DNA of 64,000 nt from Psammoneis japonica (GCA_008632985.1 QPGO01000065.1:124001-188000), one strand, 5' to 3'; counted from the first letter of the stretch, positions 1 through 49,440 are shown. Program-made: numbers and translations. The notes: generated by a model not told the origin, from the letters alone.

Positions 1-37
1 TTCACTGTTCCGGCTGGGGGGAGGTCCTTCTGGCCAG

Positions 38-24570: not shown

Positions 24571-26256
24571 AGGAGCGCTCCGTCTTCAAATTGCACTATT
24601 CATCGGTAGCGAAGGCCGGTAATTTTGTCGTTGCGTTATGTGTGTTGTCTTGGCGGTGTTGATTCTGCTGTCTGTATAATTAGCGGCGCTCATTGCTTCC
24701 GGCATTTTACTACCAACACTGGCCACAAGAGACTCCAGACTCTCACCATGATTTGTTATGGCGTCGAATCGCTACTTTTACTCGTTTCTTGTTGCTTCGC
24801 TTTCGCTTTTTCATTGCGATCCTGTCTCTTAATGAGCTGGATGCTTGTTTCAGACTGGACGCCGCACTTATACAGACGCATCAGTATTGAGGCTCGCAGC
24901 TTATCAAGTTCTTGAACACATGGACATCGACTTCGTTGACTATTGTTGAAAGAATGGAGGAATTATGGATTGACTTGTACGAGAGAGGCTAAGTTGAAAT
25001 CAGAGACGTGGGACTCATGCAAGCATGGTTGCAAGCTCTCGTCGAGAGTGGATACGAGTTTCCCTAAGTCACTCGCTCCCGGCATCCAAACATTGTCCTC
25101 ATGCGTGAGTTTAACTTTGCCAAAGGTTCCAAGAATGCACCATTTTGGGATCAGAAATGGCGGGAAGTCTTTCCAAACATCGTCATACGTTGTCCCTTTA
25201 GCGGTGAACAGATTGGTGATTTGCACTCCCCTTGTATACAGGCGATAGCAAGCAGCGCCAATGATCGTCGAACCGAATCGCTATGGGCTGGGCAATCAAA
25301 GACGTACTGCAAAAGACGATTCATCTGAACAATGACGAACTCGGAGGAAGTTAGCGACAAGACCCAAGCCAAAATCTATTTCCTGCAACGGATGAGAATT
25401 TTGCTCCACGAGGCACTCAAAGATGAGAACTACATGGATAACTGCTACGCTAATTCTGACAAGATTCGAAACATTTGGTGGCACCGATAGTATTCCACTT
25501 CGGGAAGAGGTTGTTGGGTTGTATCCGATTGGGGTGCAACGAAGGAACTGTGAAAAGCAAGGGAAAAGAATGTGTCAAGGAAGCATATGAGAGTATCATG
25601 GGGAACAAGGATTTGGAGAAAGCTTTTCTCAAGTGCTTCGAGAGTGACAACTCAATTACCACGGACGACAAGCTCAAAGTATACAAGCAGCTTATTTCGA
25701 AGACAGCTCAGGGCACACTGAATTAATCTCACGTATTGGGCAGTGCCCCTGACCCCACTTTCACCCCAGATTGTCAAAATGTGTAAAACACCCCTGTTTT
25801 GTAAAACGCCCTCTAGAGAGTAACGAACAAGCAGCGGCTTGGGTCGTCATGGTGCTTTCGACAGTCGAGTGAGTCGTCGAGCAGTTTTTGCTGTTTGCGC
25901 ATTCAAATCGCGCGCACTGCACAGTGAATGTTCACTTCCGGGTTCCTTCTGGTTTTGTTTCGACCTCAAACATGACCGACGACTGACCGACGAATGCTCG
26001 AAAAAGCCTGCTACGTAGGATCCTACGTAAGACATAGGGTAATGAGCCAAAATGTGTGTTTTACACGACGAAGCACGTGAAAGGCCCTTTGCGTGGTTTT
26101 GCCACAAAACTCAGGCTCTCAGCTCTCACAGCTTGTGCACTTCAATTTAAGTTTGCACTTGACAGATTGAAGGCTGACTTTCAGCAATCAGGTGTCAGGT
26201 TCTGCTGTGTCACACTGTGCCTGTGAGCAGCAGTGCCAAGAGGTTGTTTGGCAGCC

Positions 26257-26452
26257 TGACAGAATGCCGAAGGTCGACAGTGACAGAGGCATGAAAGACT
26301 CCCCAAAGTGCTAGGACTGTGATGACATGAGTGCTAGTAGAAGAGAAAGTGAGAGGCAGATCTCAGAGAGATCTGCTCGTGTCCACCCAAATGGTCCAGC
26401 CATCATCCGCGTCCAGTCTGTCCATCATGCGACAGGTGCAGATGGGCTGACA
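26257..26452 (-). repeat. 3' LTR
   Basis: Direct repeat of 33288-33483; preceded on the minus strand by polypurine tract AGGGGAGGG (26453-26461). Confidence 0.95.
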
Positions 26453-26658
26453 CCCTCCCCTGATCTGCAACATCTCAACATGTAGAACAGTGCAGATCAA
26501 ACCAAAGAACAGGGATGATGTGAGGGAAAAAAAAACAGAGAGACTAGACATGGGACACGACAAGTGTCCATGCCCAGTGCGCCATCAAACAAGGGGGCAG
26601 TGCGCAGCAGGGAGGCCACCGCGGAAAAAAAACATCAACAGCAGTGTCCCATCATGCG

Positions 26659-29600
26659 TCAAGTGTGGCGAGCGTGCAGCACCCAGCCAAGGGCCTTGGC
26701 AAGGTCATTGCTGGGGTTGACAATGCCTGGAGTGTGTCTTGTGACAATCTTGCCCGCTTCCTTCCATTCTTGAATCGCAAAAAACTGGATCTCAACATGA
26801 CGGGATCGCTCGGTCGGGATCGAGTGATTGATGATCTTGATTGCCGATTCGTTGTCAATGTATGACGGGGTTGGCGTCGTCTGAGGGAAGCCTGGGTCTT
26901 GTAGAACGTGACGAAGGCACAGGACATGCTTGGCAGCAGTTCCAGCAGCACAAAATTCAGCTTCTGTAGAGCTCGCAGCGGTCACCGATTGGGTCTTGCA
27001 CCGAAAAGATGTGGCAGCACCAGCTAACATGCAAGCACAGCCAGTCGTAGAACGACAGTTGCGGAGGTCATTGCCATGAGCAGCATCCAAGAAAGCAACG
27101 AGTTGATGGTCATGTTCCGGAAAAGGGAACGATGGTGAGGTCTGGTCCGGAGTGAGACGTTCGAAGGGGCAGGCAGGCAGTTTTGAGTCTCGGGTGGGCT
27201 TCTTGCAGTTCAATTCCCAATGCCCAGTGCGTCAAAGGCACTTGCACATGCCCTTGAGTGTGTCACAGTGAACCAAAGCAGGACAGGTAGAGAACTTGGA
27301 GAGAGCAGTGATGGCATGCCCAACATCCAGTCGACATGCAACGCACGCACACAACAATTCGCCAAGAAGAGTGCGGCAGCCAAAACCAGCAGCTTGTTGT
27401 AGCTCCGCATGCTCCGGGGTTCCTTCAGCTGGGCCAACAGTGTCGCACAGTTCGCGAACAGATTCAACAGGGAGTGGCACAGCCTTGCAGTCATCGTCGA
27501 GTTCCTCGTCCGTCGGTGTCAACCAACCATGCGAGGCACAAACCCGATCCACACAGCTGTGAACAGCAATGCCAATGGAGTCATCACATTGATGAACATC
27601 CACACCATTGAATTCTTCAATCATGCCAAGACACTTGAACGGCGGAGAGGTTTCCGATTCCAATTGGAGAGCTTTGCCAATCTTGTCGTAGATCTTGACC
27701 GCAATGGACTCTTCAGGACAAGCGAGAGAGAAATCATCAACCTGACAGAGAAGCAAGATCTTGTGTCCTTCAAAAGCAGCAGAGCAGACACATTTGTCGT
27801 GTGAGCAGTGTTGCGAAAAAGCAGGTTCACATCAGACAAAATGCCGTTGATGTGCGTCTCCCAGAGCACACCGGCTTCTGGGTGTCCTTGGAGTGCATGT
27901 TGCATCGGAAGTGCCACGGTCCTGTCCAAGTCAACACCAAATCGAGCCTTGCACCAGGTCGCGTGTGCCTCATCTACAGCAACACACACGGGATGTGACG
28001 GTCGTGGAGAGTGTGCACAGGCATCACGAGCATCCCCACCAAAGACAGGATGGCTCATGGTCACAGCAAGGGCAAAAAACATGCGTTGGATGGGTTGCTC
28101 GACACAGGATGAGTGCGTCGAGTAGAGACGATGTAGCATCAACGCAGCACGGGGAGATCCATCGCAGCACTGTCAAGAGCGCCGTGTGCCATCACACTTG
28201 AGGTCATGTTGCCAATGCGGACGAAGTGCGATGGCATCCTTGGGTCGTTTAATCGGTGCACCAAACATCCCCAACTCATGGAACTGGTCAAGTTGTTTAA
28301 ATTCACCTGTGTGCCATTCGGGCCACGTGTCCAACTTCTTGAGATGATGGCGGGTGAAAGCACCTGAGGCTTGTTCCTCTGGAGTGACAGCGTGGGATGA
28401 TGTGGCACAGACATTGACTGTGCCATTGTCATGATCAACAAAGAACGGCGGATTGACATCATCGTCATCCGCATCGGAGAAATCAACATCGGGGTGGCGG
28501 ATGGCAGCAATGGCACGCATGTCGGCGTTGGTGATTTCCGGAACATGCTCATCATCAGGATCAGGAGTCGGTGCATGCACGTTGTGTTCCATCAGAGCAT
28601 GTTGTAGAGCTTGAGAGTCCAGGTGACGTTCCGGCGCGAATTCAATTTCAAAATGAGTCTTGCCAGAATCACAGACTTGCTGAAAACGGTTGACAGCCTC
28701 CTCTGCCATGAAGATGGGATGATCATCAATCGATGCGACATGCGCACCCTTGATCTTGTTGCGGGTGGCCTTCAAAGAAGAGAAAAGACGCGCAGCAGGA
28801 GAAGCACGCTTGACATCAGAGACAAATGCTCGCAGACAGAGATCGTCCGTAGCCAAGGAAAGTCCAAACGTGGGATCAGCAAATGTTCCCTTCATCGTGT
28901 GCTCAATGGTCTTGGCAAAAGGATTCCCATGAAAGTGAAATTCATCCATTGTGGTTTCTTCAGTCTCGGCAGGTAAAGCCTTGCCATCTTGAGTGCGTTC
29001 CAAGTGAACCACATTCGGCGGAAGAGAGTCGTGGGGAAGATCATTCATGCCCTCATCACAGCGAATGTGCTTGGCAAGCTTGACACGCGATGTCTCAGTG
29101 TCACGCCAAAGAATGTTCTTGGCAGTGTCCGGAAGACAGCCTGAGAATGTGCCCTTGCAAGAGACAGACCAAAATTTCGCTGGGCGGTGATTCGACGCAC
29201 GCACCCACACTCGACAACCAAATGCACGAAAGTTCTTGAAATCATCCTTCCGACCAGCAGCGAGAGCAATCGGAGCAGCAGGTTGTCCGCGGGATGGTGT
29301 GGCATTGTTGATTCAAATGAAATGATGAAAAGCATGGGGCCAGAATTTTGTGGGCAAATCGGCACCGATTGGCATCGCCCAGATGGCGTTGGCAACAGAC
29401 AAATGACTGAGTTCCACTGGGCCACTCTGATTTGAAGCATCTTTTCCCGTAGGACGAATTGCACAATGGAAGTCATCCTCGAAGAGTCGCCGAACTTCTG
29501 GGTTTTGATGCAATTCACCTCCTTGATCCACAAATGCACATTTGTCTGGACATTTTGGCAAGTGCTCTTCCAGAAAGTGGCGAAGCCAATTCAAAGGGGT

Positions 29601-32600
29601 TGCCTTGGAGACACGAGTCGCGCCATGGAGACACTTCATTTTATGATCGTAAACAGCAATCCAACAAGTCTCGCCATTCAATCCAACATGGTCCTTGGTG
29701 CACTCTGAGTTCTTGGAGCGCAGGCCAGAGAAGGAAAAGTCAATCGTAAGGCCTTGGTGTGGCTGGGTGGCAGCAAGAGTGGTGTTCGGACCGGCAGGTT
29801 CCTTCGTCTGCTTTGCTCGTGTGCATGTGGGACAAGTGTTGAGAGGAGAAGTTCCGTGGGCAAACTTGGGGACGCCATCAACATGTTCATGGGCATGACA
29901 AAGGCAGTGATCACTTGGATGACCAAGGCGCTGATGCCATAAAAGACGTTCCGTGTCGGCCTTGAGGGACTGGACAGGAATGTTCTTCTCAGCATGCTTC
30001 TCAAAAGGAATGTCTTGACAGACATGGGGGATCAACTTGCGTTCATGACGAAGAGCGTCATGTTGGTGGGTGCGACAAGTCTCAATCACACACGTAGCGA
30101 CCTCTTCACACTCATCGGCAAAAGCAGGATCACTGGTCTTGAGGCGCTCAACAGATGCATCCAGTGCGTCGTTAGATTCCGGGAGAATGAGAGGGTGAGC
30201 AAAACATTTTCCATTGATCAATTTCCCATGAACAATGACATCCTGACTCTTGCGCAATCGGTGTCGTGCAACAAACTTGCAGGTGCCAAGATCATGGAAC
30301 TTGAGAATGCAGTCGACATTGCAATCTGTGCGACAAGCACCATTTTGACGGAGCAGGAGTCGCTCATCGACCAACGTAGATTGGATCTGCAGGTGGTGGC
30401 ATGCACGAACCTCAACATGTCCGGCAGAGTTCTCTGCAAGAATCCGCAGGCATCCGAAACCAACTGGAGTGGCTTGGTGGCCAAGAGCCGGGTTGACGGC
30501 AAGGGGACAGGGATGGGATGGGGTGAAGTCTTGGCAGCAATGGAGGAGGTCACGGTCGCCTGCACATGCAATGTCAGCACCAGCATCCAATTGAGCACAA
30601 CGTTCATTCGGAGCAAAGTTTGCGCCATTGACAGAACAAGTGGAGCGCAGCAGTTCCGGCTCAGGTGAGTGACTCGCCTGGTGTGGATCGATTGGAGTGA
30701 CACGAACAGAATTGATGGCAGCAAAACCGTCTTCAACAGCCATGTCATCACAGGTGAGATCAACACATTCCTCAAAAACCGGTGTTTCTGGGTCTTCCCT
30801 CCCCTGTTCCAAAGGATCCGGAGCATGAGCAGCATCGACGGAGGCTTCTGGAGGAGCAGGGTCATCATTGGGTGACGTGTCAGTGTCAAATGACATCTTC
30901 GTGGAGGTGGAAGGGGTGGCATCCATGTCAATCTGTGAGGAAAGAGGCATTTCAGCGGCAGATGACGAGACGGTTAGTCCCTCTTTCAAGGTCATCCCGC
31001 TGAGATTAGTCTTGTCTCGGTGAGGAGACAACGGGCAGTGTCGGAGATCCGAAACTGGCTGCGACGGCCCAATTGAAAATCCGAGGGCAGAGCACTAGAC
31101 GGAGGTGGATTTTCAGGGTTGTCATGATGGGGTGGGAGTAAACCTTGGGGGGTCCTTGGAACTCGGAAGCACGCACAGCTGCTTCCGATTTTAAAAATTG
31201 ACAAAAACGGATGTGGAATCCCTTGATGCACGGGTCATTGTTCAGGATGGGACAGTCATCAAATGAATGCTCTCCGGAGCAGACAAGACATGGTTTCTTG
31301 GAGGCTTCATGCGGAGTGACTTTCAGTTCATAGACTGAAGCCGAGCACACATGGTGAAGAATTCGATCTTCGTCCGTTGATGGGATCTTGAGTTTGTGTG
31401 ATTCGTCGCAAAGAGCATCAAAGGTGTCCGGATGTGGGGATTCTGCACCAGGATCTTCAGTGGCAGAGTCATCAACTGGTGCATGAATGGGTGTCTCAGG
31501 GATCTGGAGAGAGTTGACATTGGCAGGTGTGTGTCACGCAGGAGCATCTGCTTGATTCCATGTACGGCATGGATTGGATTGCGTCACACGAGTGGCAAGG
31601 GATGGACTGTCCGGTTGGCGGAGGAAATCAGAGAGAGTCTCGACAATCTGTGCATCCGTGTGCTTCTTCTGCATGGCTGGAGACTTCCGTTCATCTCTGG
31701 CAGCACGTGACAAGAACTTGGAGCACTCAGTGTTCTTGATGAAGATGGTCATCTCCCATGGATCATTCAACGTAGAGTCTGTGTCAAAAATGCAGGCACG
31801 CAGCTGCAGGAAATCATTGAAGATCATGTGGCAGTCCGTCAATGATCGATTGCCTTGGACAGGATGGGAATCAACAAGTCCAGCAGCATCGTGATCAAAG
31901 GCAGGATGATTCTCGTGGATGATCTGCTTGAGAGCCTTGCATCCGTTGCCATGGCATGATGCAACAATCCGATGATGCTTGCTGTTCTTGGGGAACACAT
32001 CTGACTTGGATGGGATCTTGTGGAGAGAGCTCTGGGCTTCCTTGCAGTGGACGTACATGCGCTGGGGCAAGTCGTCATCTTTGCCGTTTCCAATCTTGAA
32101 GCCTTTCTCACCACCGTGGTCCTTGGCAAAACACCACAATGGATGTGTGTGGCACCCTGAATCAAAGGCATGACGTTGGAAATTTTGGTGCCATGCACGC
32201 ATCCCAGGAGGAGAGTCGTCATGACATGCAGGAGGTTCCCTGAACAGCATTTTCTGATCAGGAGTCGAGCTCATGATGAAAAGGGCACCATTGTCAAGGA
32301 TGATGCGATCGGATGCATCAATGCAGTGACGGAATCCATGGTCGCAAGGGACGAGAGAGCTCTGGAGAGCAACTTCACTGTCTTCTTTGCGGTCTCAGCA
32401 TTCACGAACATCTTTTGGCAGCGTGTTCGGATTGAAGAGGTGTTTCGATGTAACGGAGGATGTGTCACTTCCAGATGACTTGGCAGAAGCTGTAGAAGGT
32501 GGAGCATGGCTCGACGCGTGTGCATTGAGTGCAGTGACCAAGTCAGTCACGGTCAATGCAGCAGGTCCTGCAGTTTTCTGAGAAGAAGACGGAGGCTGCT

Positions 32601-32985
32601 GTTTCTTCTGGCAGGGTGCAAGAGAGAACTCGTTCCAATTGCGATAGTTCCACATCATGTCCGGATCAACATGCATGTGTTGGGTAGACATGGCAATGAA
32701 CAGAGATTGTCCACTGTTCTGAAGATTCGTCTTGATCATCTTTGATGAGATCGGAGTCGTCAGGCGGACTGGACGAGGCCGTTGAGGGTCAAGAAGTCTG
32801 AACGGGGCTTGATCCATAATCGTCTTGATTGATTCTATGTCCGTGGGATCAGCTGTGTAAGGTGGAAACGCTTCGTGGATGAAGCAATCACGAAGCATGT
32901 CCGCGAAATCTTTCTTGGGTTGTGTGTGCTCTGGGTCGTCAAAAAAAAGGGTCCAGATCAGTTGTGGAGTCCGCACAAATCGCAT
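26659..32985 (-). pseudogene. Fragmented gag-pol polyprotein
   Basis: Zn knuckle CLVCSGEHSFDDC; protease QLDAGA; 'LWHQRLGHPS...CPTC' and integrase core (IDFS, VDQGGE, GPVE); RT 'ALQGHPE', 'QVDDF'; RNase H 'DAAHGND..RSTTG..SSTEAE..DNESA..RSRHVEI'. Multiple stops and frameshifts. Confidence 0.93.
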
Positions 32986-33277
32986 TCAGGCAATTGTGGA
33001 GATGTGGCGTCGTTGTGTGTGCCTCGAATTCGCAGCGGATCTCTGTGACGGACGACAGAGCGGGCTTTGTGGTGTCGGAAGACGCCATGGTTTTAGTGGG
33101 TGGAGCCATTTTTGGTCATGCACACGCAGAAATCTGGCATGTTTCTACGACCGTGAAAAATGCCAGGAAAGCGAGATAAAAAGTTGTCTGATCAGACGAT
33201 GAGGCTCGCTCAATCAGCTCACAAAACAAATGAATCAAAATAGAAAGCTTGGCGCAGAGGTCTGTGGCACAGCGCAA

Positions 33278-33287
33278 GGCCACAACC
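33278..33287 (-). promoter_or_regulatory. Primer-binding site of the Copia element
   Basis: GGTTGTGGCC directly follows the 5' LTR. It resembles the GGTTATG(G/A)GCC tRNA-iMet half-molecule PBS of copia-type elements, with TA read as TG. Confidence 0.65.
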
Positions 33288-33483
33288 TGACAGAATGCCG
33301 AAGGTCGACAGTGACAGAGGTGTGAAAGACTCCCCAAAGCACTGGGACTGTGACAACACAAGTGCCAGCAGAAGAGAAAGTGAGAGGCAGATCTCAGAGA
33401 GATCTGCTCGTCTGTCCAAATGGTCCAGCCATCATCCGCATCCAGTCTGCCTGTCATGCGAGACAGGTGCAGACAGGCTGACA
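33288..33483 (-). repeat. 5' LTR
   Basis: Direct repeat of 26257-26452, followed by the TSD. Confidence 0.95.
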
Positions 33484-34654
33484 CAGCCAAGCAGCCAGCT
33501 CTCTGTGAAAAATGGTTGCAAAAGGAAAGGATCTGCCTGCTGCAACACAAGTGACAAGCAATCAAGAGTGCATTTTCCTGTGGTTTGGTGTCAAAGAAAA
33601 TGTGCTTGTTTGTGGTGCGCTGTGCTGGCAAGACCAGCTGCGAGGCACAGCCCAGCCAGCCATGCAGCCACCGCCAGCACAGTGGGTGCTGGCCTCCTCT
33701 CATGATGTTGGCATTGGGCCACATCATGCAGCTGTGCCACTGCAGTCAAATGGCATTTCTGCCAGCTCTGCATGAAAAAATGATTGCAAAAGGAAAGAAG
33801 CCATCTGCGGTGCAAGAGACAAGCAGCCGCCAAGCTCCCCATGGTGGTGGGCTGCTTGAAGTGCTGCAGCAGCTGTGCTCTGTGCTGGCCATCCAACAGA
33901 GATGAGTGGACCGCAATGTTGGCTGCAAGATGAAAGGACTGTGTTGGTCACAACTGGCACCAAACAAGTGCGGGAAATTTTCCTTTCATCCAAGGAAATT
34001 TGGGAGCTGCTGAGAGAGGAGCCCCCCATGACCCAAAACCCCGCTCATGCTCACATCTTGATTTCCCCCTCATTGGCTTGTTGAATGAAGAAAACAAAGA
34101 GGCTTTCCTCTTTTGTTTTGTTGCACAATGTGCGCCAGATTTGCCACACCAATTTGAGCTTTTGTGGGCTTGCTTGGAGCAGATCACACTTTTGAAGAGA
34201 CCATGGAAGCACATCTTTTTGTCCTTGAGAAAGTGCCTCCCAATGGTGTCTGCCTCACTCATTGAGTGCATTGCACAAAAAGATGTGTTTTGGCAGCCAC
34301 AGGCTCTGTGCAAATCAACTTCTAGATGAAAGGTTCATGACGGTTGCAACCACGCATTGAATCACCAATTGTTTTTTCCTTTTCTTGTTTTCTCATGTTT
34401 CCTTGTCTAGGAAATTCAGCGCCAAATGAGGAATTCCCTGTGATCGAAAACCTGCAATGATGCGGTGATTGGCATGTTGACAATGATTCCGTTTGTGGCA
34501 TCGCTGTCAAATTTGCACTGGAAAACCATGTGGGTTTCTACTTGTCGCTGTCAAAATGGAATTGTGTCATTGTCAAATTCTGCACAAACCCTGGTGCATT
34601 TCCCACACAGTTCCCAAAGAGCCACCTGCGCAGCTGGACGATTGCCTGTTTTAC

Positions 34655-35822
34655 GTGACACTGCAAATTGCCAAACACTTGTCACTCTTTGCACACAAAG
34701 TGCGTTCGATCGCTCTGAAGAGGAAATTTTTCATTCATTGTTCGTTTGCACCAGGCCACGTGGAATTCTGCAGAAACTCCCTCTGACGTTTCACCCGCGC
34801 TTCTCTCAAAACAACACGCGACAATGCGGGGAACACCGTCGGCAGTTTGCGACAACTTTCCCTCTCTAACAAAAGAACAGAAATGACAGCATTTGTGCAC
34901 AGGAATTGTTGACACCTTCAGCACAATGTTGACAGCAAGGAGTTGCAGGATGCAGGATGCAGGATGCTGCTGTGTGAGAACAGCACTGCAAAACAAGACA
35001 ACAATGTTTGGCATGGCAAACACAGCTGTGCCGAAAATCAAACGCCCATCAATGACAAGCACTCCATTTGGTCATTCAACAATGCCACCTTCATTCCTAG
35101 ATCTGTCACCTGCAAAGCCAAATTGAAATTTCTGCTGTCTTCTTCGCATTGTGCCATTGAGAGCCGACAGCGAGTCACTTGCTCTGCTGGTGCAGAGAAT
35201 GTTTTCATGTTTGCACTGCATGCAACACATTCAATGTCTCCATCAGTGGCGCGCAACTCTTCCTTCCAGCATGTCCATCACGCACACTTTTGCTCCATTT
35301 CTCTCTTGCGCGAGCCATTTGTGGCCCTCTCATCACCTCGAATGTCCACACTGCAACACCAAATGTTCAACATTCAAACAACATTCACCAGCTTTGGTTG
35401 ATGAAAGATCAATTGAGCCTCAACGCCACTGAACAAAGGCAAACACCATGCGACATGCCAGCTGGGATGTCAAAACAGTGCAGACAGAGAACAAATGTGA
35501 GCGAAAGCACCAGCGGAAACAATGCAAGCAACAAAGCTCTCTTTTGTTGCCATTGAGAGCGCACTGAAACACGGGAGAGTTGTGAAAATTGGCAGAGTCG
35601 ATGACGATGGGCACCGCCATTGTCGGACACATCTCCTCGTGCTTCACCCCGTGTTGTGGTTGGTGGTTGGAGAGAGGAGTCGGAAAGCAGCAAGACTTTG
35701 CGCTGTAATTTTCTACGTGGCCTGGCACAAGCGAGCCAATGAAAGGAAATTTTCCTCTTCAGGGTGATCGAAGGCGCTTCACATGCGAAAAGTGACGAGT
35801 GTTTGGCAATTTGTGGTGACAC
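34655..35822. mobile_element. ~1.17-kb segment bounded by ~120-bp imperfect inverted repeats (possible non-autonomous DNA transposon)
   Basis: 34655-34773 is the reverse complement of 35703-35822; no transposase or clear TSD recognised. Confidence 0.45.
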
Positions 35823-37039
35823 ATGATTTTACGATTCCCCCCCTCCCCCCTTCACCGCGAAGGTTGCGCTCAACACGTGAGATTAATTTAGCATGCCCTG
35901 TCACGCAAGATTCAGGGCTGTTGCAGACAAGTGCAAAGAGGACAAGACAGGGCATCATGCAAAAGGCCAGTCAGACGTTGCACTCCAACAGAATCTCAGA
36001 GCTCAAGTCAAAAAGTCAAGCGTCAAGGTCACAAGCAACTCACAAACATGCTCTGTTTGATCACCCCCAGTTGGTTTCTCTAAAACGCTCTCTGCTCCAG
36101 ATTGCCCTGTCCACTTGGAGGGGTTTGGGTTGCTTGCAGCGAAGACTTCCACTTGAAAAGGCACTCAAGCCCACAAGAAAGTGGGGCCCCATGCCGATCA
36201 TGTGCATGCATCAGAGGCAGCAATGTGGTGGTTTCCACTTTCTTTTGTAAAATTTTGAGTGTGCATTGTTAAAATTGTCAACAAGCAGAACTTGAAAAAA
36301 TGCCGGCAAAAGTGCTTGACAAAATGAAGCTGTTTTTTGCATTTTATCTGATGTCTCATTGACTTTTCTTGCACAAGCTTCAATCAAATGCATGCAATGT
36401 TTAATTTAACTGGGGTTAAAATCTGTTTTTTGTTGTGCATGGTTTGGTTTCCTTTTGATCGTAATCAATTTGAACTTGGTTTTAACTTTGTCCTCCTCAC
36501 TCACGTGTGTGTCTTTGCACGTGTGCAGTCTGCAGCACTTCACGCACGCGCACATGACCCACCTTCATTTTTCTTCACTTTTGCACAGCCCGTTGGTCTA
36601 CGGCATTTTCAGCATGTGTTTTGCACGTGCAATTTTCTGCACATTTCACAACAGTGCACCCTCTCCCCAAAGTTTGAAAAACGAGAGCGCGTGCTGTTGT
36701 GACTCACGTGGATCCTGCGTGTGGTCGCAAATCTGCAAATCGACAACCGGCCATGGCGGTGAAAGACTTTGCCCCATTGGCCGATGACAGCAGCTCAATG
36801 CATGGTGACACCTGCCATCCTTCTGGTTGGTCAAGATGGGGTTTTATTTGGGTGCAGCTTGAATTTTGTGATCGCGAGTGTGCTGTCACGAATCTGCCGC
36901 ATCCAGAATGCTGAGCTGCTGGCGTGTTGTTGTGTGTTGTGTGCACGCACGTCACAAACTTGCTTTTCTGCAGCGTTGTCACAATCGCGCATGTCAGAGT
37001 TTTTCATCCAGAATCATCGTGAGTTGCCATGAATTGCAC

Positions 37040-38150
37040 TGTCCAAACAAGGCATGCACAAAAAGAGGTTCGTTGGTTTTTGACACATTTGCCAACAACA
37101 CATCCGTCTTCTCCAATTTCTGTGTCCAGACCCAGAAAGACTGCAGGCGGTGCTTGTTCCTGCAGCTCTCAGAATCTCACATGTGAAAAGTTCTTTGCCA
37201 TGTGTGACACTCTTCAAAAAAGGCATGCACAAAAAGAGCTTCATTTGTTTTTGATGTGTTCACTTGCGTTGCATCCATCTTCTCCAATTTCTGTGTCCAG
37301 ATCCAGAAAGACTGCAGAGGTGGAGAGTGGGGAGGCAACCCATTGGAGGTTGCCTGAGTTGTTGGGCTCATTTTTAAAGGCTTCCCAAGTCTCTCCGCTG
37401 TTTGTGGTCAAGAGCAGCAGGGGGGGTCGACTGCAACAACCGCGGCAGCTGCCAATTCCATGTCGATGGGTCGGGAACTGGCAGCAGAAGCTCCCGAATC
37501 GGCGGCGGCGGTGGATGCACCTGCAAGTCTACGTTGAGGTTTCAATTGGTTGCTGTTGTTGTCCCGTGCACTCTCACAAAGTGTTTTGCATTTCTTTGCA
37601 CTGAACAAGGTGGATCAGAGCAATGTTGCTTCACATGGTCCTGAATCGGCTTCGAGGGGTCGGGAACCGGCGGCAGAAGCGACCAAATTGGCCACGGCAG
37701 ATGCACCAGTGAGTCCATGTTGCGGTTTCAATTGGTTGCTGTTGTTGTCCTGTGCACTCTCACAAAGCATTTTGCACTTCTTTGCAATGAACAAGGTGGA
37801 TCAGAGCAGCGTCACTTCACCTGGTCCGGAATCAGCAGCGCTGGATGCACAGGCAAGTCCATGCATTGACGTCTCCATTGGCTGTGGTTGGCTCATCTTT
37901 GTCATGCTCTCACAACGTTTTCTGCACCGTTCGACAATGAATGAGGTGGCTGCCAGTGCTGGCAGTGGCTCTTCAAGAAAGAGAACTGCAGCAGCTGCTA
38001 CAAACTCGCCTGCTCCAGAATCGGCGGCACCAGATGCACCGGCAAGTCCATGTTGCTGTTCCTGTTGGTGGTGTCAGTTCATCCACATTGTGCTCTCACA
38101 ACGCATTCTGCACTTTTTTGGCAATGAACAAGGTGGCTGCAAGCAGTGGC
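37040..38150 (+). repeat. Tandemly duplicated exon-intron units of a degenerate gene
   Basis: Four related intron-like units start at 37523, 37709, 37853 and 38042, most ending ...tgaacaag|gtgg. Two other related units start at ~37050 and ~37220. Confidence 0.65.
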
Positions 38151-40982
38151 ACTTAAAGAAAGTGAGCTGCAACTGCTGCAGACTCTGGGGTGTTGTCTCC
38201 GTCGGCGTCATTTAACTTGAATGCAAACAACAAAATAGAATGTTCATGGCACAATGCAAATGATTTTAATTTACAGGTTTTGCAGGGACAGAGGGTGGGC
38301 ACTCTCATGGGGAAAACGTGCCCCTGTTTCATGGTGAAACATTTTTTCTCATGGGGAGGGGGGGTCTGATCCCACAGCATGAAAATGTCAATCTGTCACA
38401 GTTGACATGTCATTGCCAGCTGCACAACTGATGAGGTTTGAAACCATAAAAAAATCATCTGTGAAAGGAACAAAAATCACAATGAAAAGATGTGTGATGA
38501 TCACTGCATTGCACGCTCTGATGTGGACACCGACGGGTTCCAGCCCCAGGCGGGACTCCGTGTGACATTGGGCCCGTAGAATTCTACGTGCGAGCTCCGC
38601 AGCACGAGAATTTAATCGACGGATGTGTTTGTCTTCAACATCAAATAAACGGCCAAGTTTGTGGTGCAATTGCGCCTCTTGCCACTCGATGTTTTTGCAA
38701 ATGTGCCTGCCCTGCGCGATTCTCAAGACATTGTAGAATCGCGCTGCAACAAAAAATGTCAAAAGCTGTTGGACGGATCGCTCAATGAGTGCACTGCACC
38801 ACAAAATGATGCTCTACAAAATTTTTTTCACAACAGTCTCGCACAATTCTGCACACGCGACATGCGGTGCAATCCAAAAAACCATCGATGCCACAGTTCA
38901 GCAGTGCGAGGTCCCGTCACCTCTAGAGAGCTGGGATGCGTCCACCGCAAATGATGGCCTGTCCGTCAGGCAGTGTGTCTCGAGGTGCGCCGTGGAGGTG
39001 TGACATGCAGTTCCTGCAACTGACTGACACCTCGTCACCACAAAGCATGGTCTTCTGACAACAACCCCAGATTGGCAAGGTGCAAGTCGTTCCCAAAAAA
39101 ATGATCCAAAATTGTTCAGGTCATGTCTCAGACCTCCTTTGCAGATTGGAAGGCAACAAGAAACACAAAATGATGCACACATGGTGGTGCATCGTCTTGA
39201 GGTGCATCTTGGGGTGCCGGCACTCCGTGATGTGCATCTCAGTTCCTGCAACTGACAGACACCTCATGCCTCGTCACCACAAATCATGGGCCCAATGTCA
39301 ACAACCCCAGATTGACAAGGTGCAGGTTGTCCCTGTCCTCCTCTGCAGATCCGAGGGCCACAAGAATCAAAAATGAGACACCACCTCTCTCTGGAGATGG
39401 GAAAAAGACAGAGACGGAGAAGGGCAGGCCCAAAGTGTGGACAGATGGCTGAAGTGAGGAGTTGTCAGCAAGGGCACCGGCGGGAACATTCGTCAATTGA
39501 GACACAACAAAAATGTCGTTGCATGGCTGCAACATCTGCGACCACACGAATCCACGACCACCCAAACCACCACGCAAGAACAAATCCATCACCCTTGCAT
39601 TCCCTGCAATGCCTCAATGACATTGTCCCTCTTGCGACATGTGCAATGCCGTGTCCAGAACATTCTACCCAATGCCACAATGATGCGCACATTGTTTTTT
39701 GTCTGCATCCCAATGGGTGCCGGTGCAACTGATCCAACACATTTTTTGGGTGCGTGCTCTTTTTCTCAGAATGTTCTTTGTCAAGTGCAAGGCATGCACC
39801 CAATCCAACCACGATGATGTGCCCTGAATGACACATCATTGTTTTGTCACTGAACAATGTCGCCCCATCATTGCTGTTCCCCATTTTGTTCTTGCAGGCA
39901 GAGGACATGACTCTTCTTTTTTGTCATGTGCAAAATCACAGCAATGGATTCAACCAATGATGCCGCAGCAGTGGATGTGGTGTGCCGCATGGAGGTTGTC
40001 TCAGCCATGTTGGGTTTGCTTGTTGTCACAATGGCCCTGGTCTTGCTGGCATTCTTGGTGGTGACAGCACATTCACCGGTGGCCGTCCTGGGCTGTGGTG
40101 GTGGCCGTGGTGGTGGGCATGGTTGTGGCCACAGTGGTGGCCCTCCTTTTGCATCTCATGGTGGAACATCTCGTGATGGCAGCGATGGTGATGGCGATCG
40201 GGTTGGCGGCAACAGCCTTGAAACTGCTCACCGTCCCGCGATCAGCCCTCCCGATGCATGTCATGGCGGACATTCGGATGAGAGCAGCAGGGGTGATGGT
40301 GGTCGCCCAGGCCGTGGTTTTGGCCATGGTGGTGGCCCTCCTTTTGCATCTCATGGAGATGCTCCATCCACACAACCACTTCTATTGAATCGTTCAATGA
40401 ATGTATGTAACCTTTATGTACTTCGGTCATAGAGGCATTCGCAACATTCGATTGGGATGGAGGCAACAACAGCGAAAATGCATGAGAAGCAGTGGATGAG
40501 GAGAAAAAGCATCTAACGGAAAAAATCGAGCGGCAATCGCTATACCAGATGCTTCCAATAGGGTTTAAAAAGACTCTTCCGATGCGATTACCACTCGATT
40601 ATCAACATCAACGCCGCCGTAAACGATTTGCTCACCATGGTCGAAGTCTTTTTTTCTCGTGCAAAAAGGACGAGGATTGTGGGGTGGCGGACGAACGTGC
40701 AAAAAATAGTTTTAGTCGAATTATTCAGCTATAACGAATTCTTTTTTGTACCAATGATGTACGTACCTTTCTACACTAATATAACGTATAAGAGTATTGA
40801 CATAATAATAAGAAATCCTTCTAGATCTTTTTGAATATTTTTATAGTGAATGTAGATATTATTGACGACGAGAAATGACACCGACGAGAGCGGCCGGGAG
40901 CAACTTGAAACTCAACACAATGACGAGAACATTGAAATAGAAACAGCTCCGCTCGCAATCTTCACGTTGTACAACCAACACA

Positions 40983-42065: not shown

Positions 42066-45000
42066 TCTCCTACTACCAACAAGTACAAGTCGGAGTAAGT
42101 AGAGGATGGTGTTGGGGCAAGTATTTTTGCAAGGCGTTCTGCCACTGTGCCAGATTATACCGCCATGCAATAACGAGGAAGCAGAACCAAGACCAAGGTA
42201 TTGTTATTTTTTGCACTAGCTACAATATCGTAGAATAAGAAAAAAAATAGACCCAGAGGTTTTGTGAAATGATAATTATGCAGCTCACTTAACAGTAGGT
42301 TACGAATAAAGATTTTAGATTTCTGTGATCGTAGAGTTGTTCCTTCTTGAGTTGAAGGAGTAGGCCGTAACTTCCACCACCGCCAACTTTTCGTGGAGCC
42401 TTGTAACAGCTCTCGCCGGCCAATAGGCTACTCTCAGTATGGCCATCGACCAGAGCGGCTACCTTCCTGGACTTCCCCCAACTAACCAGAGCTTGAACTT
42501 GACCTATCCAATCTCTACCTCTAGAGAGGCCTTTCCAAAAGCATCAAACGCAGAAGAACTGCCCATCCGCAACACATCATTCAACTTTGCGGTTCAATGC
42601 CAATACACCGGAGGCACTAATTGAACACCTGGCAGCTGTTCTCCAACCGCCCTTGCTGCTCGGGAGTGGTCCAAGACTGACTCCATCAAACTTGTCGACC
42701 AGCCATTATGTTGTCGAGCGACATGCCGACAATCCCCCCCCACAACCTGTGCTGTTACCCTATCCGCCACACCATTTAAGTTAAAGGTTGCACTACTTAA
42801 GGGCAAATGCAGCATGTGGGTTCCACTCGCAAGCGACAACGTGAAATGCCTTGCTCTGTTGATCAGAGCCGGAAGAGCATAACGACCAATACGTGCGCAC
42901 ACATCCAGCACCAAATCACCGTCTTGCACCCCTTCATTTCAAAATCATTTTTTTCTCGGTGACATGCCCCAAATAATGAACGTAACTCGCGTCAAATCAA
43001 AGCTCTATCGAATTCGCTTTATCTCAATGAGGGTCGCATCAACCCGAGGGTCGTCCCCACCGTTGATTTTGGCACATAATGTAATCAATGACAAGAATTA
43101 GCCTTCTTGTATAGAAAAGGCACGTTGAAGTAGGACCAACGTTCTGTTGTCGCCCAGAATAGCACAAGTATTTTCGTACATGTGAAACAGATAATATTTC
43201 GTAATCCTTTGTTTCACATATTATCTTGCTTGCTTGAGTTGTGTTCCTAGAAGTGGCTTGTTTACATCGAGCATTGCCTCCATAAGCGCTTGCTGAGTTC
43301 TCGTCATTCTAGCCTCGCTGCTGTAAAATACCGCCGTGGAAAGCTTCTTGCGGTTTCCCAACCTTTCGCCCAGTGGCGCAACCGTACTATGATGCTGATT
43401 GAATGAAAACGATTGGAACAGCAATCAACCAAAGAGAACGTTGGGATAATTCGACTGAAACAGACCATGCATCGCGGTCCAGATCCCAGGTCGTGGTGTC
43501 AGTCGTGCGTGTTGTTCGTGTGTGTTTAATTAAGTCGTGTGTGTTGTCGTGTGTTGGTCGTGTGAATCGCGTTTTTATCTTGTCTGGGTTGACGATTTAC
43601 GACCCCTCGCGACTACCGGTTACTCAGCACGCTCCTCTCATTACGGTAACACCGTCCAAGCACCACAAATATGAATGAAACTGCCTCGTCGCGGCCTAGG
43701 CCCTACTCCTTCAACTCAAGAAGCAATGCCACCCGATGGCGACATAAGAGCGGCAATCCATCACGCGTCACAGCGCTTTCCGAAAGTCCAACCCTTAACA
43801 GACATCGCAGTATCAAGAGACAGATACCGGTTTGGTGAATGATACCGACTTTCAATCGCGATTTGTCGTACAGAACGAAGCGGTCGGCCCATCTGACCCA
43901 AACACTGAAGTGCAGCTACTCTAGTAGACGAGGAGACGACTAGAGCTTCATGGGCTGATACTGGTACTAACTCAGATTCCGCCGCTCTATCAAATAATGC
44001 AGTACGGCTAGACAAGCCCTACGTCGAGACTCGATGCGAAATCTCCAATCCAAATCAGTCACCACCACGACAACGGACGTTTCTCCATCTTCGATGTGGG
44101 TCCATTCCTCTTGGAGAACGCGTCAGCGTGCAACACTCTGTAACGACAGAGAACGCTCACCAAGAAGCAACCACTTTGCCACGGATCGATAATGATGGCG
44201 AACCCCTGAATATGGACGAGGACATGGTTAGAGTGGAACTCAGTGGCCAAGCCATCATCAACCATTGCCGAATCTCTATCAAGGCTCCATCGGAGTCATT
44301 ACAGCAAGGTTTTGACAGACCTGGAGCAAGCACCCCAGGACAGTCTGTATTTCAATACTTGCGTTAAGAAAGTGTTGGGGGGGGGGGGGGTGTGTGGCAG
44401 CTACTCGCAAAATCTGGAGCTTTGAAATCCAAATCTTTGCCGTCCACCCTGCGGATGGATGAACGGGATCCTCCTTTTGCTGGCATGTCCGAGATGCAGC
44501 TTGACGATTCTTCTGTTGCTGCAACCATGTCTTCGTGAGGGAGAAGTGCTCTTTCAGTTTTAGCAGCAATGCAACAAAGGATCGACTTGACTATGACAGA
44601 CTCGAGCTTTCTTTATCGCGAGCCAGAATGTACCTAGGGAGCATCTCGATCGATAAGCCATGCCTCGCCTTTGTCCTCATAGCTTGACAGATCGAGGAGG
44701 TGGATCAACAATATAGCTCCGCGATGGTTCCGATAATAAATGAGGATTCGGAGAATGAATCTTCACAAGTCGGCGGGAGCATGTCTCAAGGCTTTGCCCA
44801 GCATTCGGACAACAGCTTTGTCTATACGCAAGTAACACATTTTAAGCAGTGCTTGGATGAACATGATTTTGAGTTATCACAAAGCAACAAAGAGCCGTTA
44901 GCAAGAGCCGACGAATATCGATACCGAAACTAAAAATCTACCGCGGTGTACGAACGACACGGAAACGTGCAGCTACTCATCAATTACAAAGGCATGCTCC

Positions 45001-48500: not shown

Positions 48501-49409
48501 TGCTTTCCATCATTGCTTTTGAGTTTTTGGTGAATCATTGTTGTCATGATGTTGAACAATTTCTTTAAATTTCTGTTTGTCAATTGTTTCTTTCTGAATC
48601 TTTGCACACAGTGGAATTCCATGACCCTTGGCAGCAATGTTCAAATTTGAAACATGACTGAAGACAACAGATTTGTGCAGAGTGACATCACTTCCCAAAC
48701 CTCATTGGCCCAACTCAAAAGTTCCCAGTTTAGCATGAAAAACAGCATGTTGCACTTTGATGTGTCTCAACAATGGCAAAAATTGTTGGGTGAATGCAGC
48801 TTTTGTGGGGGGTCTTTTTCTGTTGTTGTCATGGAGAGGTTGGTGCATTGGTTTGGCTGGTTTTCTGTTTTGACATGCTGTGGTGCAACCGCAGTGTGCC
48901 TTGACTCATGACTCAATTATTTCACAGTGCACATGACATCTGAACAGTCCACAATGTTGCCAAGATGTGCATTTTCCTTGAGCAATGAAGCAGTCATTGA
49001 CGGTGCACTCAGTTGTTCCACAGTGTGTTGTTGTTTTTTAGAGTTGGTGTCCAGTGGAGTTGCAACGGCGTTGGATTGATCTGCCACTGCATCGGGGGAC
49101 GGGGGGTTGTGTTGACCACAGGCACTGTGTGCATGGGCAGCTCTCTGCACTGTTGAGTGGTGCATCCATTGTGTGGTGAGAATCTTTGAGGCAATTGGGG
49201 TGTTTAAGGCAACTGGCCTCCTGCCAAACAAGAGGACAAGCAAAGGCTCAAGCACTTTGGATGATGTCAAAAAGGATCAAATGCCAAAGAGTGGCAAACT
49301 TGGCAAGTGCTGCATTTGTGCAGTCATTTGCTGCCTCTCTTGTCATGCAGGTGCAGCGGTGGTTGCTGGTTGGCCAACAACTCAAGACCAAAAGCAGTGA
49401 ACAGAGAGT

Positions 49410-49411
<2 letters not shown>

Positions 49412-49440
<29 letters not shown>

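What the first reader, a model, noticed from the sequence alone, without database searches (positions are those of the whole stretch)
26100..40380. Regional TpA->TpG/CpA (A-to-G) hypermutation of transposon DNA: a 'reverse-RIP' candidate genome-defence system
Seen: TA is rare over ~14 kb while CG remains common inside the Copia. Conserved Tyr positions read Cys/His (TGCACMLAG for TGY-x-x-LAG; KCLG for KYLG; LLCACV..RLDVGHA for LLYxxV..RPDIxYA), the PBS reads GGTTGTG, and long Cys/His-rich ORFs appear in all six frames because TAA/TAG have been erased. Protein conservation fixes the direction as TA->TG/CA. Established: fungal RIP creates TA from CA and 5mC deamination consumes CG, so neither gives this pattern. 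Inference: double-strand adenine-directed mutagenesis at TpA, e.g. a TadA/ADAT-like DNA adenine deaminase (TadA-derived editors are known to favour TA) or error-prone repair targeted to silenced chromatin. I do not know of a described system of this kind; no responsible enzyme is encoded in this window.
Basis: partly seen in the sequence, partly recalled or inferred. Interest (0 to 1): 0.95.

Follow-up and report, generated by a model that had tools for sequence, protein, structure and literature searches.

The report
TpA-erasing hypermutation in diatom repeats
Blocks of repeat-rich DNA in this diatom genome have had nearly every TA dinucleotide converted to TG or CA after the repeats arrived, the footprint of a targeted mutation process reported so far, in my searches, only in one 2026 preprint on an unrelated alga.

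Summary
The interval 26100-40380 holds 89 TA (observed/expected 0.10), against 0.64 in the rest of the window. Two further blocks, 1-2650 and 47550-55750, look the same, with edges sharp to about 200 bp.

The direction is TA to TG/CA, after integration, on DNA and on both strands:
- 26 conserved Tyr columns of 30 diatom Copia homologs read 14 Cys, 9 His and 0 Tyr here.
- The two LTRs differ mainly by CA/TG double mismatches.
- A gene copy that straddles the edge of block 3 lost 12 of 12 ancestral TA relative to three paralogs.

The host is a pennate diatom. Copies of a related Copia family in public metagenome contigs have lost 4 to 100 % of their TA sites, so this is not an assembly artefact.

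The same signature was reported in 2026 in mutation-accumulation lines of the chlorarachniophyte Bigelowiella natans (bioRxiv 10.64898/2026.01.13.699255). My searches found no report for diatoms.

The enzyme is unknown. Adenine deamination is the leading inference, untested here. I file this as a new member of a very recently described kind. Interest 0.75.

The parts
26150..40300 (.). Block 2, the finding: a TpA-depleted domain made of a nest of high-copy repeats plus about 1.3 kb of low-copy DNA at its right end.
   Evidence: TA 88 in 14,151 bp, o/e 0.10; CG o/e 0.62. Edges. Word depth in run X1 is about 1,000-5,700 over most of 25801-38400, against about 100 in the left flank and 157-181 at 39001-40200.
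26252..33484 (-). Degenerate Ty1/Copia LTR retrotransposon of the diatom type, with gag-protease-integrase-RT-RNase H remnants.
   Evidence: Pfam gag_pre-integrs (32.3 bits) in 29316-31094 and SH3_retrovirus (29.3 bits) in 28176-29312. Homologs are 1,061-2,965 aa Copia polyproteins named from Nitzschia, Fistulifera, Cylindrotheca and Fragilaria. RT/RNase H strings lie in 26662-27831. A polypurine run precedes the 3' LTR.
26252..26453 (-). 3' LTR of the Copia.
   Evidence: 204-column alignment with 33283-33484: 21 mismatches, of which 14 lie in 7 CA/TG double mismatches and 3 are TA against TG/CA.
33283..33484 (-). 5' LTR of the Copia.
   Evidence: GGTTGTG follows its inner end.
37463..37833 (.). 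186-bp tandem repeat inside block 2.
38401..39000 (.). Very high-copy short repeat inside block 2.
   Evidence: X1 word depth 94,129.
38756..40487 (.). TpA-poor right end of block 2, confirmed by read-derived contigs at single-copy depth.
   Evidence: Four X1 contigs (312, 564, 547 and 346 letters; depth 45-67) lie here with 1, 2, 0 and 0 differing letters. There are 0-1 TA per 400 bp at 39000-40000.
1..2650 (.). Block 1: a TpA-depleted domain that runs off the window's left end.
   Evidence: TA 18, o/e 0.14; CG o/e 0.72. The tandem duplicate 1775-2226 / 2484-2922 shows TA kept in the copy outside the edge where the inner copy has TG/CA.
47550..55750 (.). Block 3: a domain depleted in both TpA and CpG.
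   Evidence: TA 29, o/e 0.06; CG 105, o/e 0.20. Edges.
47130..48680 (-). Gene copy B of a local four-member family. Its 5' part and most of its body lie inside block 3 and its 3' end lies outside. It serves as the polarity control.
   Evidence: Alignment A1. Inside the block 12 of 12 ancestral TA are lost (6 TG, 2 CA, 4 other) and 28 of 30 ancestral CG are lost (12 TG, 12 CA). Outside, 9 of 10 CG are kept.
49413..52496 (.). A pair of 650-bp direct repeats (49413-50045 and 51851-52496) with the DNA between them. Both copies are already TA- and CG-free.
   Evidence: 12 mismatches, only 2 CA/TG doubles. The pair was therefore duplicated or homogenised after depletion.
3000..4760 (+). Gene copy A, the unmutated paralog of B, used as outgroup with C (11360-12200, minus strand) and D (41060-41900, plus strand).
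43565..47014 (-). Negative control: the arm of an inverted segmental duplication (partner 5842-9328) that lies outside the blocks and is not hypermutated.
   Evidence: 3,403 aligned positions, 188 mismatches, 100 transitions and 88 transversions, 1 CA/TG double; TA 146 against 151.

Best explanation
Shown here: in this pennate diatom a mutational process acts on chromosomal DNA after repeats have integrated. It is confined to discrete domains with sharp edges. It converts TpA to TpG or CpA (an A:T to G:C transition at either strand's TpA), site by site, until almost no TpA is left. The domains are built around nests of high-copy repeats, here a Copia LTR retrotransposon and unclassified repeats. 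They spill over into adjacent low-copy DNA, including part of a host gene copy. Duplication as such does not trigger the process, and it is separate from CpG decay.

Inferred: the agent is an enzyme directed to silenced, foreign-DNA chromatin, most likely a nucleic-acid adenine deaminase. Deamination gives inosine, which is read as G. Such an enzyme's T-before-A preference would mirror that of tRNA A34 deaminases (TadA/ADAT2, which act next to U33; this is recalled knowledge). The effect is to destroy Tyr codons and other TA-containing information in transposons. It is the same phenomenon as the TpA hypermutation seen arising de novo in Bigelowiella natans.
For: Depletion and edges.

Polarity:
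- Protein: 26 conserved-Tyr columns read 0 Tyr, 14 Cys, 9 His, 2 Phe and 1 Ser, while Trp is kept 15/15, His 30/31 and Lys 19/20. Thr to Ala (11 of 42) and Ile to Val (8 of 29) fit A to G after a T that ends the preceding codon.
- All 110 longer homologs have 2.4-5.0 % Tyr.
- Paralogs: 12/12 ancestral TA lost inside the block.

After integration, on DNA: the LTR pair has 7 CA/TG doubles and 3 TA against TG/CA among 21 mismatches, while its shared CGs are kept. The non-transposon gene copy B is mutated, and so is the inner copy of a tandem duplicate at the edge of block 1.

Both strands, independent events: 177 TG against 153 CA. None of 10 copies with 12 or more events shows strand runs (p 0.15-0.74). 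Flank preference is weak.

Not duplication-triggered: a 3.4-kb duplication arm at 94.5 % identity is unmutated.

Separate from CpG decay: CG o/e is 0.62-0.72 in blocks 1-2 and 0.20 in block 3. Across 32 copies the Spearman correlation of TA loss with CG loss is 0.16, p 0.39.

Independent data:
- 18 of 80 metagenome loci have TA o/e of 0.43 or less. One 5.5-kb contig holds 4 TA with normal CG.
- 470 of 1,361 majority-TA sites are lost in 32 copies, 392 of them to TG/CA.
- Five Tyr-poor database proteins show Tyr to Cys/His at conserved columns.

Reads: contigs at single-copy depth match the TA-poor sequence.

Precedent: 230 of 231 de novo mutations in two viral insertions of B. natans were A to G or T to C, all of these at TpA (results section of the preprint).
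Against: - No enzyme, chromatin mark or ongoing mutation was observed for this organism. No genome is held and no RNA run is listed.
- At a palindromic TpA, A to G on one strand cannot be told from T to C on the other, so adenine as the target is an assumption.
- TA loss among the 32 metagenome copies correlates moderately with divergence at other sites (rho 0.42, p 0.017). Age therefore explains part of the spread, and 'targeting' is not the only reading.
- I picked those 32 copies by hand from 80 loci, and low-TA partial matches were favoured.
- The 650-bp repeat pair in block 3 shares its TG/CA states. Either it was copied after depletion, or some TA-poor sequence can still spread.
- The sequencing platform of run X1 is not on record, and it may be the sample the window was assembled from.
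- The Phaeodactylum mutation-accumulation study reports a GC to AT bias and no TpA effect (passages read).
Confidence: 0.6

Rival explanations
1. Same regional process, but the chemistry is on thymine. A TET/JBP-type oxidation of T in TpA (to 5-hydroxymethyl- or 5-formyl-uracil), or another T modification, mispairs with G and gives T to C. This reads as TpA to CpA on one strand and TpG on the other.
For: The data are symmetric (177 TG against 153 CA) and TpA is palindromic, so the sequence cannot tell A to G from T to C. The enrichment of modified thymine at TpA in dinoflagellate DNA is recalled knowledge and was not checked here.
Against: I know of no report of such a base in diatoms, but I did not search for one. 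No test was done here.
Confidence: 0.12
2. There is no dedicated enzyme. The blocks are heterochromatin in which replication or repair is error-prone at TpA (for example poor mismatch repair with a polymerase bias), so an ordinary weak context bias runs to saturation over a long time.
For: TA loss correlates with general divergence across 32 copies (rho 0.42). The blocks are old enough to have lost reading frames and to show indels.
Against: One copy at 3.7 % other-site divergence has lost 25 of 32 TA, while one at 12.7 % has kept 28 of 45. The edges are sharp to about 200 bp. Specificity is almost absolute: 392 of 470 losses go to TG/CA. In B. natans the rate is about 1000-fold above background and is on in only 11 of 15 lines.
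Confidence: 0.12
3. RNA-level editing: an ADAR-like enzyme edits the retrotransposon transcript, and the edited RNA is reverse-transcribed and inserted.
For: ADAR prefers U before the edited A (stated in the preprint's discussion).
Against: The two LTRs, identical at insertion, differ by independent CA/TG outcomes. Both strands are hit about equally. Non-transposon DNA is hit (gene copy B; low-copy DNA at 39001-40300).
Confidence: 0.02
4. Artefact: a modified base (such as 6mA or 5mC) in heterochromatin is miscalled by a long-read basecaller and carried into the assembly.
For: The platform of the only runs found is not on record, and they may be the source sample.
Against: Read-derived contigs at depth 45-67 match the TA-poor sequence with 0-2 differences over 38756-40487. 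The same signature is present in metagenome contigs from separate assemblies and in database proteins from three sources. The changes are coherent with codons and old, with indels and frame loss. A strand-specific miscall should also create CG from TA and TA from CG, which is not seen.
Confidence: 0.02
5. Native composition: the repeats came from a TA-poor source, or selection removes TA.
For: The 650-bp repeat pair in block 3 shares its TA-free state.
Against: 110 of 110 longer homologs have normal Tyr. Conserved Tyr positions read Cys/His. The LTRs diverged at former TA sites after insertion. Paralogs A, C and D keep TA where B lost it.
Confidence: 0.01

Closest known systems
TpA hypermutation of integrated viral DNA in Bigelowiella natans (Mettrop et al., bioRxiv 10.64898/2026.01.13.699255). 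I read the abstract, results and discussion; the supplements were not available.
   Same: A:T to G:C transitions restricted to TpA, giving TpG or CpA according to strand. It is confined to particular regions of foreign DNA. [quoted passage not shown] It is not dependent on copy number (their NCLDV region is single copy; here a 3.4-kb duplication arm is spared).
   Different: The host is a diatom (Stramenopila), not a chlorarachniophyte (Rhizaria). The targets here are LTR retrotransposon and repeat nests plus adjacent host DNA, not a giant-virus or virophage insertion. Depletion here is near saturation (o/e 0.06-0.14) against 0.45 for their NCLDV region. CpG decay co-occurs in one block. Only the footprint is seen here, not de novo events.
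Repeat-induced point mutation (RIP) of Neurospora and other fungi.
   Same: Regional, dinucleotide-specific transitions on both strands that destroy transposons. Both leave a skewed dinucleotide index.
   Different: The direction is opposite: RIP makes TpA from CpA, whereas here TpA is consumed. RIP is triggered by duplication, whereas here a long duplication is untouched. RIP is cytosine-directed.
5-methylcytosine deamination at CpG (CpG decay) in methylated diatom transposons.
   Same: It feeds the same TG/CA sink and is present here in block 3 and, more weakly, in blocks 1-2.
   Different: It cannot remove TpA. Its extent is uncorrelated with TpA loss (rho 0.16).
APOBEC3 or ADAR hypermutation of retroelements in animals.
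   Same: Deaminase-type editing with a dinucleotide preference that inactivates retroelements.
   Different: Those act on cDNA or RNA during replication and mark one strand. Here the change comes after integration, on both strands, and also on non-transposon DNA.
TadA/ADAT2 tRNA adenosine deaminases and TadA-derived adenine base editors.
   Same: Adenine next to a 5' U or T is the natural context (recalled knowledge). ADAT2 is the candidate proposed for B. natans.
   Different: No such gene was examined for this organism. DNA activity of a natural ADAT2 in algae has not been shown.

Membership tests
TpA hypermutation as described in Bigelowiella natans | Substitutions are A:T to G:C transitions at TpA, giving TpG or CpA. 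| tested here: met
   In 32 metagenome copies 392 of 470 lost TA became TG or CA.
TpA hypermutation as described in Bigelowiella natans | Both strands are affected. | tested here: met
   177 TG against 153 CA; no strand runs.
TpA hypermutation as described in Bigelowiella natans | Restricted to discrete regions of foreign or silenced DNA. | tested here: met
   Three blocks with edges of about 200 bp, built on repeats. Silencing itself was not tested.
TpA hypermutation as described in Bigelowiella natans | A de novo rate about 1000-fold above background in living lines. | not testable with these tools
   Only one sample's contigs were available.
TpA hypermutation as described in Bigelowiella natans | Activity varies between lineages or copies. 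| tested here: inconclusive
   TA loss is 4-100 % among 32 copies, but partly tracks age (rho 0.42), and I picked the copies by hand.
Fungal RIP | C to T at CpA, so that TpA rises and CpA/TpG fall. | tested here: not met
   TA o/e 0.06-0.14; TG and CA o/e 1.3-1.8.
Fungal RIP | Triggered by sequence duplication. | tested here: not met
   A 3.4-kb inverted duplication arm at 94.5 % identity has 100 transitions, 88 transversions and normal TA.
CpG decay by 5mC deamination | CG to TG/CA with loss of CpG. | tested here: met
   Block 3 has CG o/e 0.20, and 24 of 30 ancestral CG became TG/CA. This explains only part of the TG/CA excess and none of the TA loss.
ADAR/APOBEC editing before integration | Changes on one strand only, with LTRs identical at insertion. 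| tested here: not met
Ty1/Copia LTR retrotransposon, diatom lineage (the target element) | LTRs flanking gag, protease, integrase, RT and RNase H in Copia order. | tested here: met
   LTR pair. gag_pre-integrs and SH3_retrovirus are above the Pfam cut-offs. The frames align with 30 full-length homologs that carry RVT_2. RVT_2 itself is not detected in the window copy at E 0.05 or better.

The most novel reading that the evidence does not exclude
Diatoms and chlorarachniophytes, and perhaps the SAR group more widely, share an enzyme-driven genome defence. In it a DNA-acting adenine deaminase is recruited to silenced chromatin domains and erases TpA on both strands. This would be a 'reverse RIP' that is domain-targeted rather than homology-targeted, spreads into neighbouring host DNA, and is common enough to be visible in environmental metagenomes.
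Probability: 0.4. Interest if true: 0.9.

Novelty: new member of a known kind. Interest (0 to 1): 0.75.

Why it matters
The only description of TpA-directed hypermutation that my searches found is a single 2026 preprint on one rhizarian alga, and the enzyme is unknown.

Finding the saturated footprint in a diatom, on retrotransposon nests and in environmental contigs, matters in several ways:
- It shows the process is neither a peculiarity of one species nor limited to viral insertions.
- It moves the question into a group with genetic tools and major ecological weight.
- It offers clean natural substrates for working out what sets the domain borders: LTR pairs, a gene copy cut by a block edge, and copies ranging from 4 to 100 % conversion.
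- A natural enzyme that deaminates adenine in chromosomal DNA would interest both genome-defence biology and base-editing work.
- It is a practical warning for annotation. These blocks produce long spurious Cys/His-rich reading frames and hide transposons from profile searches (RVT_2 is not detected).

Tried and rejected
- Whole-genome scan: not possible, no genome is held.
- Earlier notes of this scan: nothing by place, words or sequence.
- Pfam on 128 stop-to-stop frames of 90 aa or more in the three blocks: only the two Copia domains pass their cut-offs. The other six hits are below cut-off and I treat them as chance.
- Content of block 3: the 437-aa frame 53837-55147 has no relative among 1.84 billion representative proteins. 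The content stays unclassified.
- tRNA scan of the window: none found.
- Sequencing runs: 3 rows from one sample and one study, and no RNA holder listed. Expression therefore could not be addressed, and there is no second strain for polymorphism.
- Read laying showed only 40 of 451 differing places, so I could not tabulate the between-copy spectrum by dinucleotide. The totals are 327 transitions against 99 transversions.
- Protein Atlas on the HID1 gene gave only animal-dominated clusters and did not help with taxonomy.
- Literature: no diatom report turned up with these term sets:
  - diatom + retrotransposon + TpA
  - diatom + transposable elements + hypermutation
  - TpA depletion / TpA-depleted / TpA dinucleotides / TA-depleted
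  - diatom + repeat-induced point mutation + dinucleotide
  - APOBEC + diatoms + deaminase + stramenopiles
- Term look-ups inside two diatom transposon papers (PMC2806351, PMC8147415) found no mention of such a pattern. The one 'TpA' match in PMC4504042 was the word 'Tpase'.
They may list Copia-type genes among the TpA-depleted clusters.
- Flank preference beyond TpA: weak and not consistent between data sets. T at position -2 is favoured among metagenome events, yet TTAA and TTAG are the commonest survivors in the window. I draw no conclusion.

Full report
**1. The observation**

Sliding windows show three blocks in which TpA almost vanishes while TpG and CpA rise.

| Region | TA count | TA o/e | CG o/e | TG o/e | CA o/e |
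|---|---|---|---|---|---|
| Finding interval, 26100-40380 (14,281 bp) | 89 | 0.10 | 0.61 | 1.55 | 1.70 |
| Block 1, 1-2650 | 18 | 0.14 | 0.72 | 1.31 | 1.30 |
| Block 3, 47550-55750 | 29 | 0.06 | 0.20 | 1.77 | 1.74 |
| Rest of window (38,998 bp) | 1,644 | 0.64 | 0.98 | 1.14 | 1.14 |

In 400-bp windows the steps take about 200 bp. For example, TA per 400 bp goes 1, 12, 28 across 40000-40400, and 14, 3, 1, 0 across 47300-47900. On both strands of block 2, TAA and TAG number 56 and 59 against 658 TGA. A control stretch of equal size has 231, 322 and 462. This explains the long open frames in all six frames.

**2. What lies in the blocks**

Block 2 holds a degenerate Ty1/Copia element on the minus strand (26252-33484).
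- It has a 204-bp LTR pair and a polypurine run before the 3' LTR.
- Pfam finds gag_pre-integrs and SH3_retrovirus.
- Its relatives are full-length Copia polyproteins, several named from the diatoms Nitzschia inconspicua, Fistulifera solaris, Cylindrotheca fusiformis and Fragilaria crotonensis.
- RVT_2 is no longer detectable at E 0.05 or better.

Contigs of the one public sample that holds the stretch pile up to word depths of about 1,000-5,700 over most of 25801-38400, and to 94,129 at 38401-39000. The left flank is at about 100 and 39001-40200 is at 157-181. So block 2 is a nest of high-copy repeats plus about 1.3 kb of low-copy DNA. Joints in those contigs (26207 or 26240 to 33484; 25547 to 36142) show solo-LTR or uninterrupted versions elsewhere in the genome, which indicates nested insertions.

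Block 3 contains a 650-bp direct repeat pair and unclassified sequence. A 437-aa frame there has no relative among 1.84 billion representative proteins. Block 3 also contains the 5' part and most of the body of gene copy B, one of four local paralogs.

The host genes in the window are HID1/dymeclin, a MATH-BTB protein, a glycosyltransferase and an LRR protein. They place the organism among pennate diatoms. The best named HID1 hits are Nitzschia at 71-74 % identity, Pseudo-nitzschia at 69 %, Fistulifera at 67 % and Phaeodactylum at 65 %.

**3. Direction and timing**

Three independent polarisations agree.

(a) Protein. I aligned the five Copia frames to 30 full-length homologs.
- The 26 columns where at least 80 % of homologs have Tyr read Cys 14, His 9, Phe 2, Ser 1 and Tyr 0.
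- Conserved Trp is kept 15/15, His 30/31, Cys 10/11 and Lys 19/20.
- Thr to Ala (11 of 42) and Ile to Val (8 of 29) are what A to G does at a codon's first base when the preceding codon ends in T.
- All 110 longer homologs have 2.4-5.0 % Tyr. The window frames have 0.17 % and 0 %.

(b) Paralogs. Where copies A, C and D agree, copy B has lost 12 of 12 ancestral TA (6 TG, 2 CA, 4 other) and 28 of 30 ancestral CG (12 TG, 12 CA) inside block 3. Beyond the edge, B keeps 9 of 10 CG, and its TA are visibly retained in the alignment with A.

(c) LTRs. The two LTRs were identical at insertion. They now differ at 21 positions, and 14 of these form 7 CA/TG double mismatches. This is the expected outcome when one ancestral TA goes independently to TG in one copy and to CA in the other. 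Three more are TA against TG/CA, while the CGs they share are intact.

The tandem duplicate at the edge of block 1 shows the same thing. The copy beyond the edge keeps TA where the inner copy has TG or CA.

The change therefore happened on chromosomal DNA after integration, on both strands, and also in DNA that is not a transposon.

**4. Not RIP, not CpG decay, not RNA editing, not an artefact**

- RIP: the 3.4-kb arm of a large inverted duplication (5842-9328 against 43565-47014) lies outside the blocks. It has 188 mismatches in 3,403 positions, 100 transitions to 88 transversions, one CA/TG double, and 146 against 151 TA. Duplication does not trigger the process, and the direction is the reverse of RIP.
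- CpG decay is present but separate. It is strong in block 3 and mild in blocks 1-2, and it is uncorrelated with TA loss in an independent family (rho 0.16).
- Editing of retrotransposon RNA before integration is excluded by the LTR result, by strand symmetry and by the mutated non-transposon DNA.
- Basecalling or assembly artefact: this is very unlikely.
  - Read-derived contigs at single-copy depth (45-67) match 38756-40487 with 0-2 differences. The platform is not on record and the sample may be the source of the assembly.
  - The signature recurs in data from other assemblies (section 5).
  - A strand-specific miscall should also create CG from TA, which is not seen.

**5. Independent data**

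Among 77 database proteins of similar length to the first Copia frame, five have 1.2 % Tyr or less, against a median of 3.45 %. At conserved Tyr columns they read Cys or His:
- P0261: 6 of 6
- P0289: 4 of 6
- P0288: 3 of 5
- P0284: 3 of 6
- P0252: 4 of 8

Seven comparison proteins keep Tyr, or have Phe, at most columns. In the alignment, different copies of one family carry H or C at the same ancestral Tyr.

A scan of public metagenome contigs with P0261 gave 164 relatives, of which 80 loci were kept. Whole-locus TA o/e ranges from 0.01 to 0.78, and 18 of 80 loci are at or below 0.43, the cut-off used in the preprint. Locus L001, a 5.5-kb contig, has 4 TA in all with 18-43 CG per 500 bp.

I aligned the matched segment of 43 of the 80 loci.
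- I chose them by hand: all near-full-length matches of one family, plus shorter matches, among which low-TA loci were favoured. The spread below is therefore not an unbiased sample. The other 37 loci were left out.
- I dropped 11 as near-identical to another locus (over 99.5 %).
- I scored the remaining 32 against the column majority.
- TA sites lost range from 2 of 46 to 47 of 47. In total 470 of 1,361 are lost, 392 of them to TG or CA.
- Divergence at sites outside TA and CG is 2.6-12.7 %.

TA loss correlates only moderately with that divergence (rho 0.42, p 0.017). L034 has lost 25 of 32 TA at 3.7 % divergence, while L028 keeps 28 of 45 at 12.7 %.

Events are 177 TG against 153 CA. None of the 10 copies with 12 or more events shows runs of one strand (p 0.15-0.74), and the neighbours of TpA matter little. 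This points to independent single-site events on either strand rather than processive editing of one strand.

**6. Mechanism**

Shown: a domain-restricted, post-integration, strand-symmetric conversion of TpA to TpG/CpA that runs to near saturation.

Inferred: an enzyme recruited to silenced, repeat-rich chromatin. What sets the edges is unknown. They do not coincide with repeat or duplication boundaries, which fits a chromatin domain better than sequence homology.

The simplest chemistry is adenine deamination to inosine. The tRNA A34 deaminases TadA/ADAT2 work on an A that follows U33 (recalled knowledge), and ADAT2 is the candidate proposed for B. natans. Because TpA is its own reverse complement, a thymine-directed change (T to C) fits the sequence equally well and cannot be excluded here. 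A passive bias of repair in heterochromatin is the third possibility. The near-absolute specificity, the sharp edges, the weak link to age and the burst-like behaviour reported in B. natans lines argue against it.

**7. Comparison with what is known**

Mettrop et al. (bioRxiv 10.64898/2026.01.13.699255; I read the abstract, results and discussion) studied 15 mutation-accumulation lines of Bigelowiella natans.
- They found 231 of 302 nuclear single-nucleotide mutations in two integrated viral regions.
- 230 of those 231 were A to G or T to C, all of these at TpA.
- The rates were about 6e-7 per site per generation.
- Only 11 of the 15 lines were affected.
[quoted passage not shown] TpA-depleted coding sequences are enriched in reverse transcriptase and DDE endonuclease domains.

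The window shows the same signature, so the phenomenon is not new in kind. New here are:
- the host lineage;
- retrotransposon nests and adjacent host DNA as substrates;
- near-complete saturation;
- evidence that duplication is not the trigger;
- decoupling from CpG decay;
- its presence in environmental contigs.

Six literature searches and look-ups in three diatom papers found no report for diatoms. The Phaeodactylum mutation-accumulation study describes a GC to AT bias and no TpA effect (passages read).

**8. Verdict**

- It is untested as to the enzyme.
- It is outdated in claiming that no precedent exists.
- I file it as a new member of a kind described only in 2026, with interest 0.75.

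Noticed in passing
window 3019-9328 and 43565-48659: A large inverted segmental duplication. It carries a local family of proline-rich repeat-protein genes: copies A 3000-4760, C 11360-12200 (minus strand), D 41060-41900 and B 47130-48680 (minus strand). Copy A contains an 84-bp coding tandem repeat at 3407-3790.
   Followed up: partly
window 49413-50045 and 51851-52496: A 650-bp direct repeat pair, each copy starting with a (GA)n run. Both are TA- and CG-free yet differ at only 12 positions. The pair was therefore copied or homogenised after depletion, unlike the Copia LTRs.
   Followed up: partly
window 38401-39000: A short repeat with extreme copy number in the one sample available (word depth 94,129, against about 60 for single-copy contigs).
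   Followed up: no
window 47550-55750 compared with 26150-40300: CpG is nearly gone in block 3 (o/e 0.20, locally 0.08) but only mildly reduced in block 2 (0.62), although TpA is equally depleted in both. The two decay processes have different histories or targets.
   Followed up: partly
P0261, P0252, P0288 (metagenome loci L001 and relatives); alignment A2 columns 501-580: This Copia family has an insertion of about 80 residues in the integrase with a sub-threshold match to a Tudor domain (PF21743, 21-24 bits against a cut-off of 27.2). The same family is precomputed for several full-length homologs. It may be a chromatin-reading targeting module.
   Followed up: partly
window 25300-26150 and 35800-36200: Contig joints (25547 to 36142; 26079 to 35819) indicate that these two stretches are contiguous in other copies, so one repeat was split by a nested insertion of about 10 kb. 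Its left part keeps 10-16 TA per 400 bp while its right part is depleted, so the block edge lies inside a repeat.
   Followed up: no
window 21033-22442, 56298-57842, 58475-60529, 61550-63778: Long single-frame host genes with normal TpA flank the blocks: MATH-BTB, a glycosyltransferase, HID1/dymeclin and an LRR protein.
   Followed up: partly
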